Positions 1-4,417 of a stretch of DNA of 64,000 bases are shown piece after piece. The stretch is taken from positions 1 to 64,000 of the IMG/VR virus record IMGVR_UViG_3300028601_000021, one strand, 5' to 3'. Each line of letters opens with the position of its first letter. Position 1 is the stretch's first letter. The stretch is from a virus (lineage: Duplodnaviria; Caudoviricetes). The notes below the pieces were generated by a model, which saw nothing but the letters and a program-made list of their open reading frames with translations, ran no database searches and was not told the origin of the DNA. Made by a program: the position numbers and the translations under genes.

Positions 1-242
1 CGATAGGCTTTTTATCCTATCCTCTATCCCTCACGGGTAGTTTGGCATACCTTTTAACTTATAGTGTTCATGTAACCATAAGTCCCGATAGCTCGTGGAA
101 GCATTGTATTCTTACATATGAGTAAGGTTCAGCTTCTATGCTCTGCGCGTGTCAGATGTATTACCATGAGACTTCCGCTCTGATTAGCTCCTATGATTGA
201 GCTTTCCAGTTCTTCTATCGGTTTAACGACGGCAACGTGTTT
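1..242 (-). ncRNA. Group I intron 4 of nvRNAP beta'-like gene (3' splice site at or beyond window start)
   Basis: Starts after exon ...GACGGU; the intron 5' region has GCCGUC, giving a 6-bp P1 with the U.G at the splice site. P7-like pair GCAUA/UAUGC (CGCGCAGAGCAUA ... AAGGUAUGCC). No ORF. Confidence 0.8.
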
Positions 243-254
243 ACCGTCAAAATC
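243..254 (-). CDS. nvRNAP beta'-like subunit exon 4 (12-nt micro-exon, D-F-D-G)
   Basis: Minus strand GAT TTT GAC GGT, preceded by an omega-G at 255 and ending in U; continues the NADFDGD motif begun in exon 3 (...APNA). Confidence 0.85.
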
Positions 255-576
255 CTAGTTGTCCAGTAAATGCGCTACTATTTACCCGGTATGTACTACC
301 TGCTATATGTTTCCATATAGTACGGACTATATCTTCATCTATATCCCATTTATACAGATGCTCCCCGCTAGAGTACCAAACACTTGTACCCATATAGTCT
401 CTGAACTTTACCCTCATCAGGTCTTAGCTGCAGATTATCCATATATCTCCATACTTTTTATAACCGTCGCACTTAAGCTTATCTCATCTTTATGCTGTGG
501 TAATGGAGCTTTAGGACTTTCCCGCAATTCAAGGAGATGCAAACTATTATCACTAATAGAGTGGCCAATGTAATTT
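255..576 (-). ncRNA. Group I intron 3 (322 nt, no ORF)
   Basis: P GAAUUGCGGGAAA, Q AAUCUGCAGC, R GUUCAGAGACUA, S AAGAUAUAGUCC; 5' exon ends in U, intron ends in G. Confidence 0.9.
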
Positions 577-684
577 AGCATTTGGTGCAGTGAGAATCAA
601 AGGACTCAGCTCCAATGTCTCATCGTGGATATCTGTCTTAATCTTCGTCACGAACAATAGCTGAATAGCGTGCATTTTTAATGT
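577..684 (-). CDS. nvRNAP beta'-like subunit exon 3 (36 aa)
   Basis: Translates TLKMHAIQLLFVTKIKTDIHDETLELSPLILTAPNA, linking RNP|TL to NA|DFDG as expected for beta'. Confidence 0.9.
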
Positions 685-977
685 CTTTACTACCGATACA
701 GACGCTACTCCGTACCCGTATACCGTATAAGAAATATACGGTATGCCACCTATGTTTCCATAGGGAATAGACTATGTTTCCATCTCAGTGAGATGCTTGC
801 TCTTTCCACTAGCAATCGCTTCTAGTGTACTCCCTCACGGGATAGTCGTTACACACGCCCGAGTACGTTACATACTCTGCTGGCTCGGCGTTACCATATC
901 ACATAGTGACTTAGGCTTTCGCCGAATTAAGCAAGTTACGCACCCAATAGATCACTCTACTGGAGCCCTACATTATA
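685..977 (-). ncRNA. Group I intron 2 (293 nt, no ORF)
   Basis: P AAUUCGGCGAAA, Q AACGCCGAGC, R GUGUAACGACUA, S AACAUAGUC; intron 5' UAAUGU pairs perfectly with 3' exon ACAUUA (P10); U|...G boundaries. Confidence 0.9.
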
Positions 978-1257
978 AGGATTTCGACCTAACAAGCACG
1001 GTATTCCTTTCCATGGACACTCTCTCATCAGATCCATCATGATCTGATAGATATCTTCATCATAAACTACTAATGCTTTAAAATGCTTATACAAAGCATC
1101 ATTGATATTGTACTTCTTCCTGTGCACCAGTACATTGATGATCTGCAGCTTAAGTGCATTTACCATGAGCTTCCACGGCATATACAATTCATCTGCGATA
1201 TGTGGACCAGTGATAGGTGTACACACAGCACGATAAGACCAATGGCAACGCGTCCCG
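978..1257 (-). CDS. nvRNAP beta'-like subunit exon 2
   Basis: GTRCHWSYRAVCTPITGPHIADELYMPW...GIPCLLGRNP matches beta' regions G.R....RAV and RNP; same frame as ORF 957..1226. Confidence 0.9.
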
Positions 1258-1594
1258 CGATATGTTCAGTATAGGTCGTTAATCTATACCCGCACCACTA
1301 CGTGCAGCTCTAGGCTTTCCCTAGATGTCCAGGCTATATCAGTCCTCTATTTCTAGAGGTGGTACTGTTTCGGAGTCACTTGACCCTACTGGGAGTTTCA
1401 CCCATAGCCGTCGAACTGATATCCCTATTCGAGATATAGCTGCTGATTACCCACATATCTCTATACTTTTTATACCTGTCACGCTTGCCTATATTTCAGA
1501 GCTACGTTGTAGGGATAGAGCTTGAGGATGTCCCAGCAATTAAGTACCTTTCGATCATAGATCACTCTATGAAAGCCCCGTCTTCTTCTCTTTG
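1258..1594 (-). ncRNA. Group I intron 1 (about 337 nt, no ORF)
   Basis: P AAUUGCUGGGA, Q AAUCAGCAGC, R GUUCGACGGCUA, S GAUAUAGCC (compensatory P7 GGCUA/UAGCC). Removal joins RQHNL|GTR in frame. Exact boundary inferred; P10 not evident. Confidence 0.85.
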
Positions 1595-2544
1595 AGGTTG
1601 TGCTGACGCATGATAGCTACTTTAGCACCGACCTTTTCTTTGATCAGTGACTGATAGTAAGTGATAAGCTTACTGTATACGCTATAGAGGGTCTTATGTG
1701 TATGCTTCTTAGTGGTAATAGTATTCTTAACAGAGAACGATACCGTGGATAAGTTGAAGATAGCTTCTAAGATATCCTTGGATGATTTATCTGCTAGTTT
1801 TAGACTACCACTGCTTTTGATAAGTGGATGTAAGCTACTGTGTAGGATAGGTAACTTTGTAGTGAACAGGATACCTTTATATTGCTCATAGAACAACTTC
1901 ACCCATTCCATACTACGTCTCGAAGCTGCAGTCATCGGACAAGCATTGAATAGGTAATCAAATATCCTTTCATAGTTCTTATGGAAGTAATCAAAGCTTT
2001 GTTCTTCGATTACTCCTTTCAAATGATCAGGTAGCTCTTTATCAGGATCTAATAGGAGATCGATGACACTAGCACCACCTTTAGCTATACCGGTCCAGGT
2101 CTTTAATACGAAATACCAGACTGGGTGTACGAAAGGAGGTAGTTCAGGAGGAGTGCCTACCCATGCCGTATGTGTCAATTTATCTACAAATGCAGTAGTG
2201 ACTTCAGTACGACATTCTGGACAGAGCATACCTTCGTAACTACGACCATAGATCTTACCGCACTCACATGAGGCAGTGAATCCTATATCACCATCATTCC
2301 TATTGTAGATGGCATTACAGAATTCCTTAGATAGATCCATAGAAGTCATAGTTTCATTATTAACGATACGAGCACCGGGACTACGTCTGAATAAGTCCTC
2401 CAGATCTATAGGGCCTAGGATATTCGAAAGTAGATGAGTCTTTACCTTATTTGCGTCTATAGGTACGTAATCATCTTGCTTACGATTCATAAGTCCTATC
2501 TGTTGAGGATACTTATCGTAATGTAGCTTATCGTTGATCATCAT
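1595..2544 (-). CDS. Non-virion RNA polymerase beta'-like subunit (phiKZ gp55-like), exon 1
   Basis: N-terminal Zn ribbon (CECG...CPEC), KLPILH and K..IMRQH motifs; downstream exons restore RNP and NADFDG; adjacent to the chimallin-like gene as in phiKZ. Confidence 0.88.
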
Positions 2545-2719: not shown

Positions 2720-4417
2720 TTAATACACGCGACCGAAGGGGTTCATGAAGACTCCACCACCACCGCCATAGTTAAAGCCCGCATTGGCATTCTGATTGAA
2801 GGCCTGGGCATTTGCGATAAGAGAAGACAGGTCGACCAGGTTCTGAGCACCGAGCACAGAGTTCTGAGAGATCTGAATCTTGTCCCGGATGAGGTTCTGT
2901 ACGGTCATCATGAAATTGAGATTGATCTCGCAGACGATGTTGGAGTACATGACTTCAAAGGACGGATAGAAGCGCTTGATCTGCTCGACACGGACCTTGG
3001 GATCGGTGTTGCGGACCAGCAGCTGGTATACGGTATTCACTTCGGATTCGAAGTGGATGATGGTGTTCAGGTAGTCAGCCCAACGGCTATCTGCCTGACG
3101 ACCATTGTGAGTGATGACACCGACATACTCGTGATACTTGAAGCCAGAGGCTACGGTATCGAGGATGTTGGCACCGAGGAAACGACCGTACATGGCGGTC
3201 ACATCGCTGTTACGCTCTGCGATGCCGTACTTCTCCAGGCCGGGGATACGGTAGGTGCCTTCGACGACGTCCAGGACCAGAGCGGGCTTTTCGAAGGTCG
3301 TAGCGAGGATCTGCTCACGCTGAGTCGGATTCTCGGCAAAGCCAGGCATATTGGTATTGGGATCACGGAAGAGCTTACCGATGTTCGGCTGTTCCTTGGA
3401 GAACTGGGAGAACTGAGTCTTCCACAGACCACTGCGGATGAATACGTCGGTGGCCAGGGGCAGAAGCAGAGTGGTCAGTTCAAGAGCAGGGATAACGGAG
3501 ATCATGCTGGTGATGTGGATCAGCGGCACGAACTTCGGTACGCTGTTGATCATGGCACCGGTCAGCTGCACAGGTTCGGTGAATGCGGTGACACAAGCGA
3601 TCGGCACATTTTCCTGAGCACCCTGATCAAAGTAACTGCCGGGATTGACACCGTAGCCACCCTGACGGTTACGACCCTTCTGGTACAGCACGAAGCCCAT
3701 ATCAGCACGAGGAGATACGGCATGCGGATAGATCTTGGTCATGAAAGCCTGGACGTCAGAGACGTTGGTAGAGATAACGAAGATGCTGTCATCGCTCTTC
3801 AGCATATCTGCAGTCATGGACTGGAATTCTGCACGAGTAGCGACCAGGAACATGTTCTGAATGGCAGTGATCATCTTTTCTACGCACTCGTAGTCAGCAG
3901 GAGTGACGATCAGGAATTCCAGAAGTTCATGGGTGCCGGATACTGCGGTGTGATAGGTACTCACTGCATCCTTCAGCACTACGGTACGGGGCAGGCCTTC
4001 GGGCAGGTTGACCAGGGTCTCGGAAGGCGTGAGCAGGATGAACTTACCGGCGCATTCCAGAGCCATCGTGTTTTCAGGAGAGGTCAGTGTATGGATCTTG
4101 ATATTGAGCTTGTTCTGATTGGATACGGAAGTAAGTTCTTCCTTGATACGATCGAAATACTTACGACCTTTATCGGAAAGGGAAGACACGGAGCCGACCA
4201 GGTTAATGAGAGACATCAACTTGGGTGCGACTACTCTTTCAGAGTTGTCAGTGAACTGCTGAGACATCTGGGGATTCTCCTTGGTTGCTTGGGGGTTAGT
4301 GGGTGCCTGACGTACCTGTTCCTGAGGCTGGGCTGCCTTAGCTGTGGGACGTTCTTCGATGACTTTGGGTGCCTGCTGTGCTTCTTCGCCACCGGTCTTA
4401 ATACTGCCTACTGCCAT
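2720..4417 (-). CDS. chmA: Probable chimallin (phage nuclear shell protein, phiKZ gp54-like)
   Basis: 565 aa, immediately upstream of and co-oriented with the gp55-like RNAP subunit; low-complexity N-terminus, Gly/aromatic C-terminal tail; strongly biased (C-ending) codons; early-promoter-like motif upstream. Mainly a synteny/size call. Confidence 0.75.
   Translation of the reverse strand: MAVGSIKTGGEEAQQAPKVIEERPTAKAAQPQEQVRQAPTNPQATKENPQMSQQFTDNSERVVAPKLMSLINLVGSVSSLSDKGRKYFDRIKEELTSVSNQNKLNIKIHTLTSPENTMALECAGKFILLTPSETLVNLPEGLPRTVVLKDAVSTYHTAVSGTHELLEFLIVTPADYECVEKMITAIQNMFLVATRAEFQSMTADMLKSDDSIFVISTNVSDVQAFMTKIYPHAVSPRADMGFVLYQKGRNRQGGYGVNPGSYFDQGAQENVPIACVTAFTEPVQLTGAMINSVPKFVPLIHITSMISVIPALELTTLLLPLATDVFIRSGLWKTQFSQFSKEQPNIGKLFRDPNTNMPGFAENPTQREQILATTFEKPALVLDVVEGTYRIPGLEKYGIAERNSDVTAMYGRFLGANILDTVASGFKYHEYVGVITHNGRQADSRWADYLNTIIHFESEVNTVYQLLVRNTDPKVRVEQIKRFYPSFEVMYSNIVCEINLNFMMTVQNLIRDKIQISQNSVLGAQNLVDLSSLIANAQAFNQNANAGFNYGGGGGVFMNPFGRVY

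What the first reader, a model, noticed from the sequence alone, without database searches (positions are those of the whole stretch)
1..1594. Four ORF-less group I introns in one RNA polymerase gene, with a 12-nt micro-exon carrying the catalytic DFDG
Seen: within 1.6 kb, four segments with group I P/Q/R/S cores and U|...G boundaries (1258-1594, 685-977, 255-576, <=1-242). Removing them gives a continuous beta' sequence RQHNL|GTR...RNP|TL...PNA|DFDG|. The NADFDGD active-site motif is therefore spread over three exons, and exon 4 is only 12 nt, most of it used in P10 of intron 3 and P1 of intron 4. Known: introns in phiKZ-like RNAP genes exist, usually singly and often with homing endonucleases. 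Inference: this density, the lack of any endonuclease ORF and the micro-exon are unusual; splicing order could gate nvRNAP production, and separation of transcription from translation in nucleus-forming phages may tolerate intron build-up.
Basis: partly seen in the sequence, partly recalled or inferred. Interest (0 to 1): 0.9.

Follow-up and report, generated by a model that had tools for sequence, protein, structure and literature searches.

The report
Four introns split a phage polymerase gene
An uncultivated giant phage carries four small self-splicing introns in one essential RNA polymerase gene, leaving a 12-base exon that encodes part of the catalytic site; this is real and striking in degree, but it extends a phenomenon already known in giant phages.

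Summary

- **Gene and exons.** The minus-strand gene starting at 2544 is the phiKZ gp55-type non-virion RNA polymerase beta'-N subunit. Exons 2544-1595, 1257-978, 684-577 and 254-243 join in frame. The product aligns without breaks to intronless homologues.
- **Introns 1-3.** Introns 2 and 3 pass Rfam's group I model at 66.6 and 91.7 bits. Intron 1 scores 33.3 bits, below the cut-off, but it is a clear relative of phiKZ's own gp55 intron.
- **Intron 4.** Rfam does not detect it. It belongs to a group I family found in 29 other metagenomic loci, with compensatory changes in 27 of 39 predicted pairs. The contig end removes only about 11 nt of it, plus all of exon 5.
- **Micro-exon.** The 12-nt DFDG exon between two introns recurs in two divergent relatives, L032 and L049. 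There, synonymous codon changes are matched by changes in the intron guide sequence.
- **No endonuclease.** No intron carries an endonuclease ORF.
- **Nucleus context.** The upstream gene folds as chimallin, so a nucleus-forming phage is plausible.

What lowers the score: interrupted jumbo-phage RNAP genes, including phiKZ gp55 inside NADFDGD, and three-intron phage genes are already known. Gating by splicing order is unsupported. The contig has only five detectable introns, four of them here, so this is a local homing hot spot and not genome-wide build-up.

The parts
1595..2544 (-). Exon 1 of the nvRNAP beta'-N gene (ATG at 2544; 316 codons plus 2 nt). It contains the CxC...CxxC zinc motif.
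   Evidence: PHROG 2987 'RNA polymerase beta subunit', E 9e-29. 18 homologues found. tblastn with intronless P0006 ends at 1600.
1258..1594 (-). Intron 1, group I, 337 nt, no ORF. Its 5' splice site follows CCU and it ends ...AUCG. It is inserted at QHNL|GTR.
   Evidence: RF00028 33.3 bits, E 2.7e-6 in 1.7 kb, below the gathering score. It aligns along its core and 3' domain with the phiKZ gp55/gp56 intron, which scores 75.6 bits. P7 reads GGCUA/UAGCC, a compensated variant of GACUA/UAGUC. The 95%-identical relative L053 has it at the same site, with 2.1% substitutions against 6.3% in exon 1.
978..1257 (-). Exon 2 (280 nt), GTRCHWSYR...LLGRNP.
   Evidence: tblastn 1256-978 against P0003, 70% identity, E 1e-41. 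Colinear alignment.
685..977 (-). Intron 2, group I, 293 nt, no ORF. Inserted at GRNP|TL.
   Evidence: RF00028 66.6 bits, E 1e-14. The ORFs of six relatives stop at the same GRNP site. It is 84% identical to the 293-nt intron at that site in L049.
577..684 (-). Exon 3 (108 nt), TLKMHAIQ...LILTAPNA.
   Evidence: tblastn 684-580. Alignment.
255..576 (-). Intron 3, group I, 322 nt, no ORF. Inserted between the NA and DFDG codons.
   Evidence: RF00028 91.7 bits, E 3e-22. Homologous introns sit at the same site in L032 (78.7 bits) and L049. The L049 copy is 939 nt and carries a frameshifted HNH-like ORF. P1 and P10 covary with the exon sequence in the three copies (sequences).
243..254 (-). Exon 4, a 12-nt micro-exon GATTTTGACGGT encoding DFDG.
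   Evidence: Needed for colinearity with ...N[AI]DFDGDE... of the intronless homologues. The same 12-nt exon between two introns occurs in L032 (GACTTTGACGGT) and L049 (GACTTCGACGGT), differing only at synonymous sites.
1..242 (-). Intron 4, group I of a family that RF00028 misses. 242 nt are present, and about 11 nt of the 3' end are lost at the contig end. P1 pairs GACGGU with GCCGUC.
   Evidence: No RF00028 hit. It is 80% identical to the complete 233-nt L032 intron, whose removal joins DFDG to DELY.... The family motif occurs in 29 other loci. RNAalifold predicts P3-P8, with 27 of 39 pairs compensated. Helix table.
2720..4417 (-). Upstream gene encoding a 565-aa chimallin-like (phage nuclear shell) protein. 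Context only, not part of the split gene.
   Evidence: AlphaFold2 model, pLDDT 61.5, pTM 0.65. The top 9 Foldseek PDB hits are all chimallin/PhuN, E 3e-12 to 1e-10, and the next hit is at E 0.02. No sequence-level hit in PDB, Pfam or PHROGs.

Best explanation
The gene is the beta'-N subunit of the phage's non-virion multisubunit RNA polymerase, the phiKZ gp55 type. Four different group I introns have invaded it, each at the coding sequence of a conserved motif: RQxNLG|xR, GRNP|TL, NA|DFDG and DFDG|D.

The introns have no endonuclease genes. They are most likely late-stage products of homing. Relatives carry HNH-bearing introns, or introns with a decaying HNH gene, at the same sites.

Each intron should fold on its own in the primary transcript. 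Free guanosine would attack after the U of a U-G pair in P1, and the terminal G would then be exchanged at the 3' splice site, ligating the exons.

The 12-nt exon 4 is recognised from both sides. Its first three bases pair with intron 3's guide (P10). Its last six bases form P1 of intron 4. All four introns must be removed to give an mRNA encoding an intact NADFDGD magnesium-binding loop.

Shown here: the anatomy, the homology, the covariation and the colinearity of the spliced product. Inferred: splicing itself, and the origin by homing.
For: - Rfam hits for introns 1-3.
- The spliced product is in frame and colinear with intronless P0006, P0011 and P0003.
- P0006 hits phiKZ gp55 (7ogp_A) at E 1e-30, then the AR9 nvRNAP beta' chain.
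- Relatives' ORFs break at the same sites: GRNP| in six, N[AI]| in five, DFDG| in two.
- L032 shows the complete layout of intron 3, 12-nt exon, 233-nt intron 4 and exon 5 starting DELY. L049 shows the same micro-exon.
- Intron-4 family: RNAalifold finds P3, P4, P5, P6, P6a, P7.1 and P8, with 27 of 39 pairs compensated. P3 has seven different, fully complementary strand pairs, and P7 switches between GCAUA/UAUGC and GACUA/UAGUC.
- Intron 3's P1 and P10 covary with the exons: window GCU/GGC and GAU/AUU; L032 GCU/GGC and GACU/AGUC; L049 ACU/GGU and GAC/GUU (read).
- Introns are more conserved than the flanking exons: 73-84% against 57-67% nt between divergent relatives, and 2.1% against 6.3% differences in the close relative L053.
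- HNH ORFs sit in the introns of relatives.
- No Pfam domain in any intronic ORF of the window.
- Independent assemblies reproduce the arrangement.
Against: - There is no RNA evidence. The runs laid were contigs, probably of DNA, and showed no spliced joints.
- Intron 1 is below Rfam's cut-off, and RF00028 misses intron 4 entirely.
- The exonic parts of P1 are short for introns 1-3, at three base pairs each.
- Exon 5 and the 3' splice site of intron 4 are not on the contig, so the complete gene is inferred from relatives.
Confidence: 0.9

Rival explanations
1. Regulatory gating. The tandem introns and the micro-exon are kept because splicing order, efficiency or exon-4 skipping controls when and how much active nvRNAP is made. 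Skipping exon 4 would be in frame and would give a beta'-N lacking DFDG.
For: Exon 4 is 12 nt, so skipping keeps the frame. The micro-exon layout persists in three divergent lineages. The phage has a chimallin-like shell gene, so transcription and translation may be separated. Exon skipping by tandem group I introns was reported for Twort orf142 (Landthaler and Shub 1999, cited in PMC11878797).
Against: Intronless relatives exist (L010, P0006, P0011) and intron occupancy varies between relatives. That is the pattern of selfish elements, not of a conserved regulator. P10 of intron 3 and P1 of intron 4 use non-overlapping parts of exon 4, so no order is imposed. Exon 3's end (…AUGCU) cannot pair with intron 4's guide GCCGUC, which disfavours skipping. 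There are no expression data.
Confidence: 0.08
2. Dead gene or dead introns. The interruptions no longer splice and the beta'-N gene is a pseudogene or is expressed in pieces.
For: No RNA evidence for splicing. P1 helices are short. The ONT-cappable-seq study of phiKZ found no evidence of splicing at the predicted intron loci gp56, gp72 and gp179 (PMC10914365).
Against: All exons are open and conserved. The cores keep all pairings, with compensatory changes. The introns evolve more slowly than the exons. A four-residue exon cannot be translated on its own, and exons 2-4 have no start signals. No second beta'-N copy was found on the contig, though only about 54% of the genome is held.
Confidence: 0.02
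3. Assembly artefact. Repeated intron cores caused a chimeric contig, and the tandem arrangement does not exist in one molecule.
For: Intron cores at 300-342, 804-853 and 1302-1411 match very many other contigs in metagenomes. Three independent contigs (the window, L005 and L006) end inside the site-4 intron.
Against: Logan contigs of the probable source run tile 1-403, 374-639 and 610-2600 with no differences. L053, from another sample, reproduces intron 1, exon 2 and intron 2. L032 and L049, from other studies, reproduce intron 3, the micro-exon and intron 4. The joined exons are in frame.
Confidence: 0.01

Closest known systems
phiKZ gp55 / gp56 / gp56.1 (nvRNAP beta'-N gene interrupted by an HNH-bearing group I intron)
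   Same: Same gene family, and the same gene order downstream of the nuclear-shell gene. The phiKZ intron lies inside the NADFDGD coding sequence at APN|ADFDGD, one codon upstream of intron 3 here. Its ribozyme part scores 75.6 bits on RF00028 and is homologous to the window's intron 1.
   Different: phiKZ has one intron with an endonuclease ORF. This phage has four introns with none, and DFDG sits on its own 12-nt exon.
Staphylococcus phage Twort orf142 (three group I introns in one gene, with exon skipping) and the Bastillevirinae DNA polymerase and terL genes with two or three introns
   Same: [quoted passage not shown]
   Different: Four introns instead of three, a different host gene, and a 12-nt internal exon. 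I could not read the Twort paper to compare exon sizes.
AR9 / MarsHill-type jumbo phage RNAP genes disrupted by introns
   Same: [quoted passage not shown]
   Different: A different phage lineage (chimallin-encoding, only about 25% identical to cultured phiKZ-like homologues), and a higher density in a single gene.
Intron-rich gut phages (Jug phages, crAss-like phages)
   Same: Many ORF-less group I introns of about 200 nt fragment essential genes (PMC12880540 reports 18.5 per genome).
   Different: Here the introns are not spread across the genome. Four of the five detectable introns in 156 kb sit in one 1.6-kb stretch.
Organellar genes with micro-exons between self-splicing introns (for example fungal and placozoan cox1)
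   Same: Very short exons flanked by self-splicing introns (PMC12308204 and PMC5436844, from search results only).
   Different: Those are mitochondrial genomes with protein-assisted splicing. I found no phage example in the searches I ran.

Membership tests
Group I self-splicing intron | Catalytic core (P3-P9, with the P/Q/R/S elements) recognised by a covariance model | tested here: met
   Met for introns 3 and 2: RF00028 91.7 and 66.6 bits against a gathering score of 50. Intron 1 scores 33.3 bits, E 1e-4, below the cut-off. Intron 4 has no hit.
Group I self-splicing intron | Core helices supported by compensatory changes (tested for intron 4, which the covariance model misses) | tested here: met
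   RNAalifold on 8 family members predicts 39 pairs in P3, P4, P5, P6, P6a, P7.1 and P8, and 27 have changes on both sides. P3 has seven different complementary strand pairs. P7 reads GCAUA/UAUGC or GACUA/UAGUC. One member, L036, reaches 34.9 bits on RF00028.
Group I self-splicing intron | 5' splice site after a U that forms a U-G pair in P1 with an internal guide sequence | tested here: met
   Read. Intron 1: AACCU|C with GGGCUU. Intron 2: CCU|UAU with GUAGGG. Intron 3: GCU|AA with UUGGC. Intron 4: GACGGU with GCCGUC. The exonic part is only 3 bp for introns 1-3.
Group I self-splicing intron | Terminal guanosine (omega-G) at the 3' splice site | tested here: met
   Introns 1-3 end in ...AUCG...AAAG and ...CUAG. 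Intron 4's end is off the contig; its homologues end ...UUUG (L032)...AUAUG (L047) and ...CCUG (L050).
Group I self-splicing intron | Precise removal restores an open frame colinear with uninterrupted homologues | tested here: met
   for the window. for the complete intron 4 in L032.
Group I self-splicing intron | Guanosine-dependent self-splicing | not testable with these tools
   No usable RNA run. It needs an in vitro or in vivo assay.
phiKZ gp55-type nvRNAP beta'-N subunit | Full-length similarity to gp55, stronger than to cellular beta' | tested here: met
   The intronless family member P0006 hits 7ogp_A (PHIKZ055) at E 1e-30 over residues 39-465 of 506. AR9 nvRNAP beta' follows at E 2e-22 and cellular beta' at E 1e-5 or weaker. 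Window exon 1 is 49% identical to P0006. In PhiPA3 the one match listed falls on gp054, the gp55 homologue.
phiKZ gp55-type nvRNAP beta'-N subunit | Complete NADFDGD catalytic loop | tested here: inconclusive
   N-A (exon 3) and D-F-D-G (exon 4) are present. The last Asp should be the first codon of exon 5, which is off the contig. In L032 exon 5 starts GAT GAG.
phiKZ gp55-type nvRNAP beta'-N subunit | Gene order: immediately downstream of the nuclear-shell (chimallin) gene | tested here: met
   The product of window 4417-2723 matches only chimallin structures by fold. The same order is seen in PhiPA3 (gp053/gp054) and phiKZ (gp54/gp55).
Mobile (homing) group I intron | Intron-encoded homing endonuclease | tested here: not met
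   Introns are 293-337 nt. The longest sense-strand ORF overlapping an intron is 56 aa and the longest antisense ORF is 103 aa, none with a Pfam hit at E 0.1 or better. Relatives have HNH_3 ORFs in introns of this gene, and L049's intron 3 has a frameshifted one.

The most novel reading that the evidence does not exclude
The roughly 21 nt that encode NADFDGD in this chimallin-encoding phage clade are a multi-element homing hot spot. There, tandem ribozymes separated by 10-12-nt exons are stably maintained.

Each intron's guide sequence is locked to the catalytic codons. No intron can then be lost except by exact deletion. The uncoupling of transcription from translation in a phage nucleus is what makes such stacked introns tolerable.

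In its strongest form, exon-4 skipping yields a catalytically dead beta'-N that modulates nvRNAP assembly.
Probability: 0.1. Interest if true: 0.8.

Novelty: new member of a known kind. Interest (0 to 1): 0.5.

Why it matters
**Annotation.** This is a clean natural example of how far self-splicing introns can fragment an essential phage gene. Gene callers report only a 325-aa stub ending in the intron. The whole family would be mis-annotated, and its active site missed, unless the gene is spliced in silico.

**Detection.** Rfam's group I model misses a widespread phage intron family, found in 29 further loci here. Intron counts in phage metagenomes are therefore underestimates.

**Assembly.** Three assemblies break at this intron.

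**Biology.** Two ribozymes share a 12-nt exon, and P1 and P10 co-vary with synonymous codon changes. That makes a compact system for studying splice-site choice, exon skipping and steric interference between tandem group I introns. Several independent elements crowd into NADFDGD: four insertion positions within about 13 nt, counting phiKZ and the group II-like introns in relatives. This is a sharp illustration of homing into the most conserved sequence. A link to the phage nucleus is plausible but untested.

Tried and rejected
- **RNA evidence.** The look-up of sequencing runs listed no holder on record as RNA. The four runs laid (X1, X2, X11, X3) were Logan contigs, probably of DNA, and gave no spliced joints. 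The 'joints' are cross-matches between conserved intron cores of other organisms, with other letters in between. This says nothing about expression.
- **Recovering exon 5.** The other contig end does not continue the gene. tblastn of intronless homologues finds no exon 5 in the 156-kb contig. Exact-pattern scans for the micro-exon plus intron-4 start (viral contigs) and for an internal intron-4 stretch (metagenome contigs) found nothing. An exon-5 profile found only other phages. One Logan contig of run X1 runs 52 nt past window position 1 (record 1), but its letters were not shown.
- **megablast against cultured phages.** No match.
- **Single-protein scan of IMG/VR.** Nothing found.
- **Chimallin by sequence.** No PDB, Pfam or PHROG hit. 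The profile-profile comparison was inconclusive (probability 2%, E 0.025). Only the fold search settled it.
- **MAFFT alignment of the intron-4 family with a hand-mapped structure.** It was out of register in several helices. I used anchored helix extraction and RNAalifold instead, and built no covariance model.
- **The Twort orf142 paper.** It could not be read.
- **P0002 (84% identical).** It diverges after ...VGAK, 8 codons before site 1, but its contig ends 6 nt after the stop. I could not tell whether that is a fifth insertion site.
- **Recent duplication of one intron.** Considered and rejected. Only introns 1 and 3 share a 38-nt stretch at 89% identity.
Full report
**Source.** The window is the first 64 kb of a single 156,029-nt linear viral contig (IMG/VR). 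CheckV rates it about 54% complete, and its GC content is 38%. The finding lies at the contig's very start, on the minus strand.

**Observation.**
It encodes ...AIMRQHNL|GTRCHWSYR...LLGRNP|TLKMH...LILTAPNA|DFDG.
- A search of 5.8 billion proteins with exon 1 found 18 relatives. Three of them (P0003, P0006, P0011) run uninterrupted across junctions 1 and 2. Two (P0006, 506 aa; P0011, 495 aa) run across all four junctions and continue ...N-I-DFDGDELYG... to a stop about 70 residues later.
- The boundaries are fixed by the frame together with the group I rule of a U before the 5' site and a G before the 3' site. Only junction 1 allows a one-base slide, and the rule resolves that.

**Are the intervening segments group I introns?**
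- *Introns 2 and 3.* Rfam RF00028 scores intron 3 at 91.7 bits and intron 2 at 66.6 bits. The gathering score is 50.
- *Intron 1.* It scores 33.3 bits, E 2.7e-6 in 1.7 kb and 1e-4 over the window. It aligns through P4, P6, P7 and the whole 3' domain with the ribozyme part of phiKZ's gp55/gp56 intron, which scores 75.6 bits. Its P7 is GGCUA/UAGCC, a doubly compensated form of the usual GACUA/UAGUC. That may contribute to the low score.
- *Intron 4, the family.* RF00028 gives no hit. Its conserved stretch AATCAGAGCGGAAGT...CACGCGCAGAG occurs in 15 viral and 14 metagenome loci. There it interrupts other genes or carries ORFs.
- *Intron 4, the structure.* RNAalifold on eight members predicts P3, P4, P5, P6, P6a, P7.1 and P8. 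Of 39 pairs, 27 are kept through changes on both sides. An anchored helix table shows seven different, fully complementary P3 strand pairs. P7 switches between GCAUA/UAUGC and GACUA/UAGUC. The extra helices between P7 and P3' are, to my knowledge, typical of subgroup IA.
- *No endonuclease.* No intronic ORF has a Pfam domain.

**The micro-exon.**
- L032 is a 1738-nt contig from another project. It shows the complete layout: intron at GRNP|T, then a 108-nt exon 3, then intron 3 (78.7 bits). Then come 12 nt GACTTTGACGGT, a 233-nt intron of the intron-4 family, and exon 5 (DELYALPIFEY...YYEELS, stop).
- The window's intron 4 is 80% identical to the L032 intron. The two align to within about 11 nt of the L032 3' splice site. 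Almost the whole intron is therefore present in the window.
- L049 has the same 12-nt exon (GACTTCGACGGT) between an intron-3 homologue and an intron with the same P1.
- The three micro-exons differ only at synonymous positions. The last six bases, which form P1 of intron 4 with GCCGUC, never vary.
- Intron 3's guide follows the exon changes. P1 is GCU/GGC (window and L032) against ACU/GGU (L049). P10 is GAU/AUU (window), GACU/AGUC (L032) and GAC/GUU (L049).
- Relatives with only the site-3 intron (L007) or only the site-4 intron (L005, L006) show that these are two separate elements.

**What the gene is.**
- P0006 matches PDB 7ogp_A (phiKZ gp55 fused to gp56.1) at E 1e-30 over nearly its full length. 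AR9 nvRNAP beta' comes next. Cellular beta' chains match only around the double-psi barrel.
- Exon 1 hits PHROG 2987.
- In phiKZ, gp55 is itself split by an intron carrying the HNH endonuclease gp56. That intron is inserted at APN|ADFDGD, 3 nt upstream of intron 3 here.

**Context.**
- The 565-aa protein encoded just upstream has no sequence-level match. Its AlphaFold2 model (pTM 0.65) matches only chimallin/PhuN structures: nine hits at E 3e-12 to 1e-10 and TM 0.5-0.56, with the next hit at E 0.02.
- The shell-then-beta'-N order is that of phiKZ and PhiPA3.
- The phage is therefore a divergent member of the chimallin-encoding jumbo phages. Cultured homologues of the polymerase subunit are only 23-29% identical to the intronless relative P0006.

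**Origin and mechanism.**
- The four introns are not copies of one another.
- Between divergent relatives, introns are 73-84% identical while the flanking exons are 57-67% identical.
- In the 95%-identical relative L053, intron 1 has 2.1% differences against 6.3% in exon 1.
- Relatives carry HNH ORFs in introns of this gene (L008, L050). L049's copy of intron 3 holds a frameshifted HNH-like ORF.
- This fits the homing cycle: invasion at conserved sequence, decay and loss of the endonuclease, and persistence of a still-splicing intron.
- P10 of intron 3 uses bases 1-3 of exon 4 and P1 of intron 4 uses bases 7-12. The sequence therefore imposes no splicing order. Whether two ribozymes can act at once on a 12-nt tether is open.

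**How unusual.**
- Already reported: intron-disrupted jumbo-phage RNAP genes (bioRxiv 10.1101/2020.12.14.422802; PMC11620839 for PhiPA3). Also phage genes with three introns (PMC11878797 and the Twort paper it cites), and intron-rich phage genomes (PMC12880540).
- In the papers I searched I found no phage gene with four introns and no phage exon of 12 nt between two group I introns.
- The contig holds only one other detectable intron, in terL. The density is therefore local.

**Verdict.** The regulatory and 'build-up' inferences are unsupported. This is a new and extreme member of a known kind.

Noticed in passing
window 2720-4417 (-): The 565-aa protein has no Pfam, PHROG or PDB sequence match. 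Its predicted fold matches only chimallin (phage nuclear shell) structures, at E about 3e-12. It is a very divergent chimallin, next to the beta'-N gene as in phiKZ and PhiPA3.
   Followed up: yes
own genome G000:C1 93165-93443 (-), outside the window (locus L003): A fifth group I intron (RF00028 38.2 bits, below the cut-off) splits a terminase-large-subunit-like gene into ORFs of 233 aa and at least 488 aa.
   Followed up: partly
L047 6265-7301 (relative, 76-kb contig): A more extreme version of the same locus. After ...IIKP comes a group I intron (82 bits), then a 10-nt exon GCTAATATTG. Next is an intron whose 3' end hits the group II model RF00029 (58.8 bits), then an 11-nt exon ACTTTGACGGT. 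An intron-4-type group I intron follows, then GACGAA... That spreads A-N-I-D-F-D-G-D over four exons. L050 looks similar. The exact boundaries of the group II-like intron are not resolved.
   Followed up: partly
L008 7695-7799, L012 6598-6687, L048 5629-5698, L050 3359-3429: Group II intron domain V/VI hits (RF00029, 51-67 bits) sit in introns inserted inside the first Asp codon of DFDG in relatives. Those in L012 and L048 belong to introns of only about 430-460 nt with no ORF. In L008 and L050 the hit overlaps the start of, or lies just inside, an HNH_3 ORF.
   Followed up: no
L049 4716-5654: The homologue of intron 3 is 939 nt and contains an HNH-type endonuclease reading frame broken by a frameshift (segments of 85 and 122 aa in two frames). 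It is an intermediate between endonuclease-bearing and ORF-less forms.
   Followed up: partly
window 1; L005 end; L006 end: Three independent assemblies stop inside the intron at the DFDG|D site. Intron cores at 300-342, 804-853 and 1302-1411 match very many unrelated contigs in wastewater runs. These introns probably break short-read assemblies.
   Followed up: partly
loci L016-L044: The intron-4 family (AATCAGAGCGGAAGT...CACGCGCAGAG) occurs in 29 further viral or metagenome loci. It is inserted after other conserved peptides (for example ...ENTRMKYSG| and ...AQAGMN|). RF00028 did not report it at its gathering score in the 15 viral loci that were scanned. The host genes were not identified.
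   Followed up: partly
L052 2320-2358 (84% relative of exon 1): This relative's frame leaves the window's sequence after ...KVGAK, 8 codons upstream of intron 1's site, just before its contig ends. It may be a further insertion site.
   Followed up: no
L047 3326-3580: In one relative, an 84-aa ORF with an RNA polymerase alpha C-terminal-domain Pfam hit (PF03118) lies between the chimallin-like gene and the beta'-N gene.
   Followed up: no
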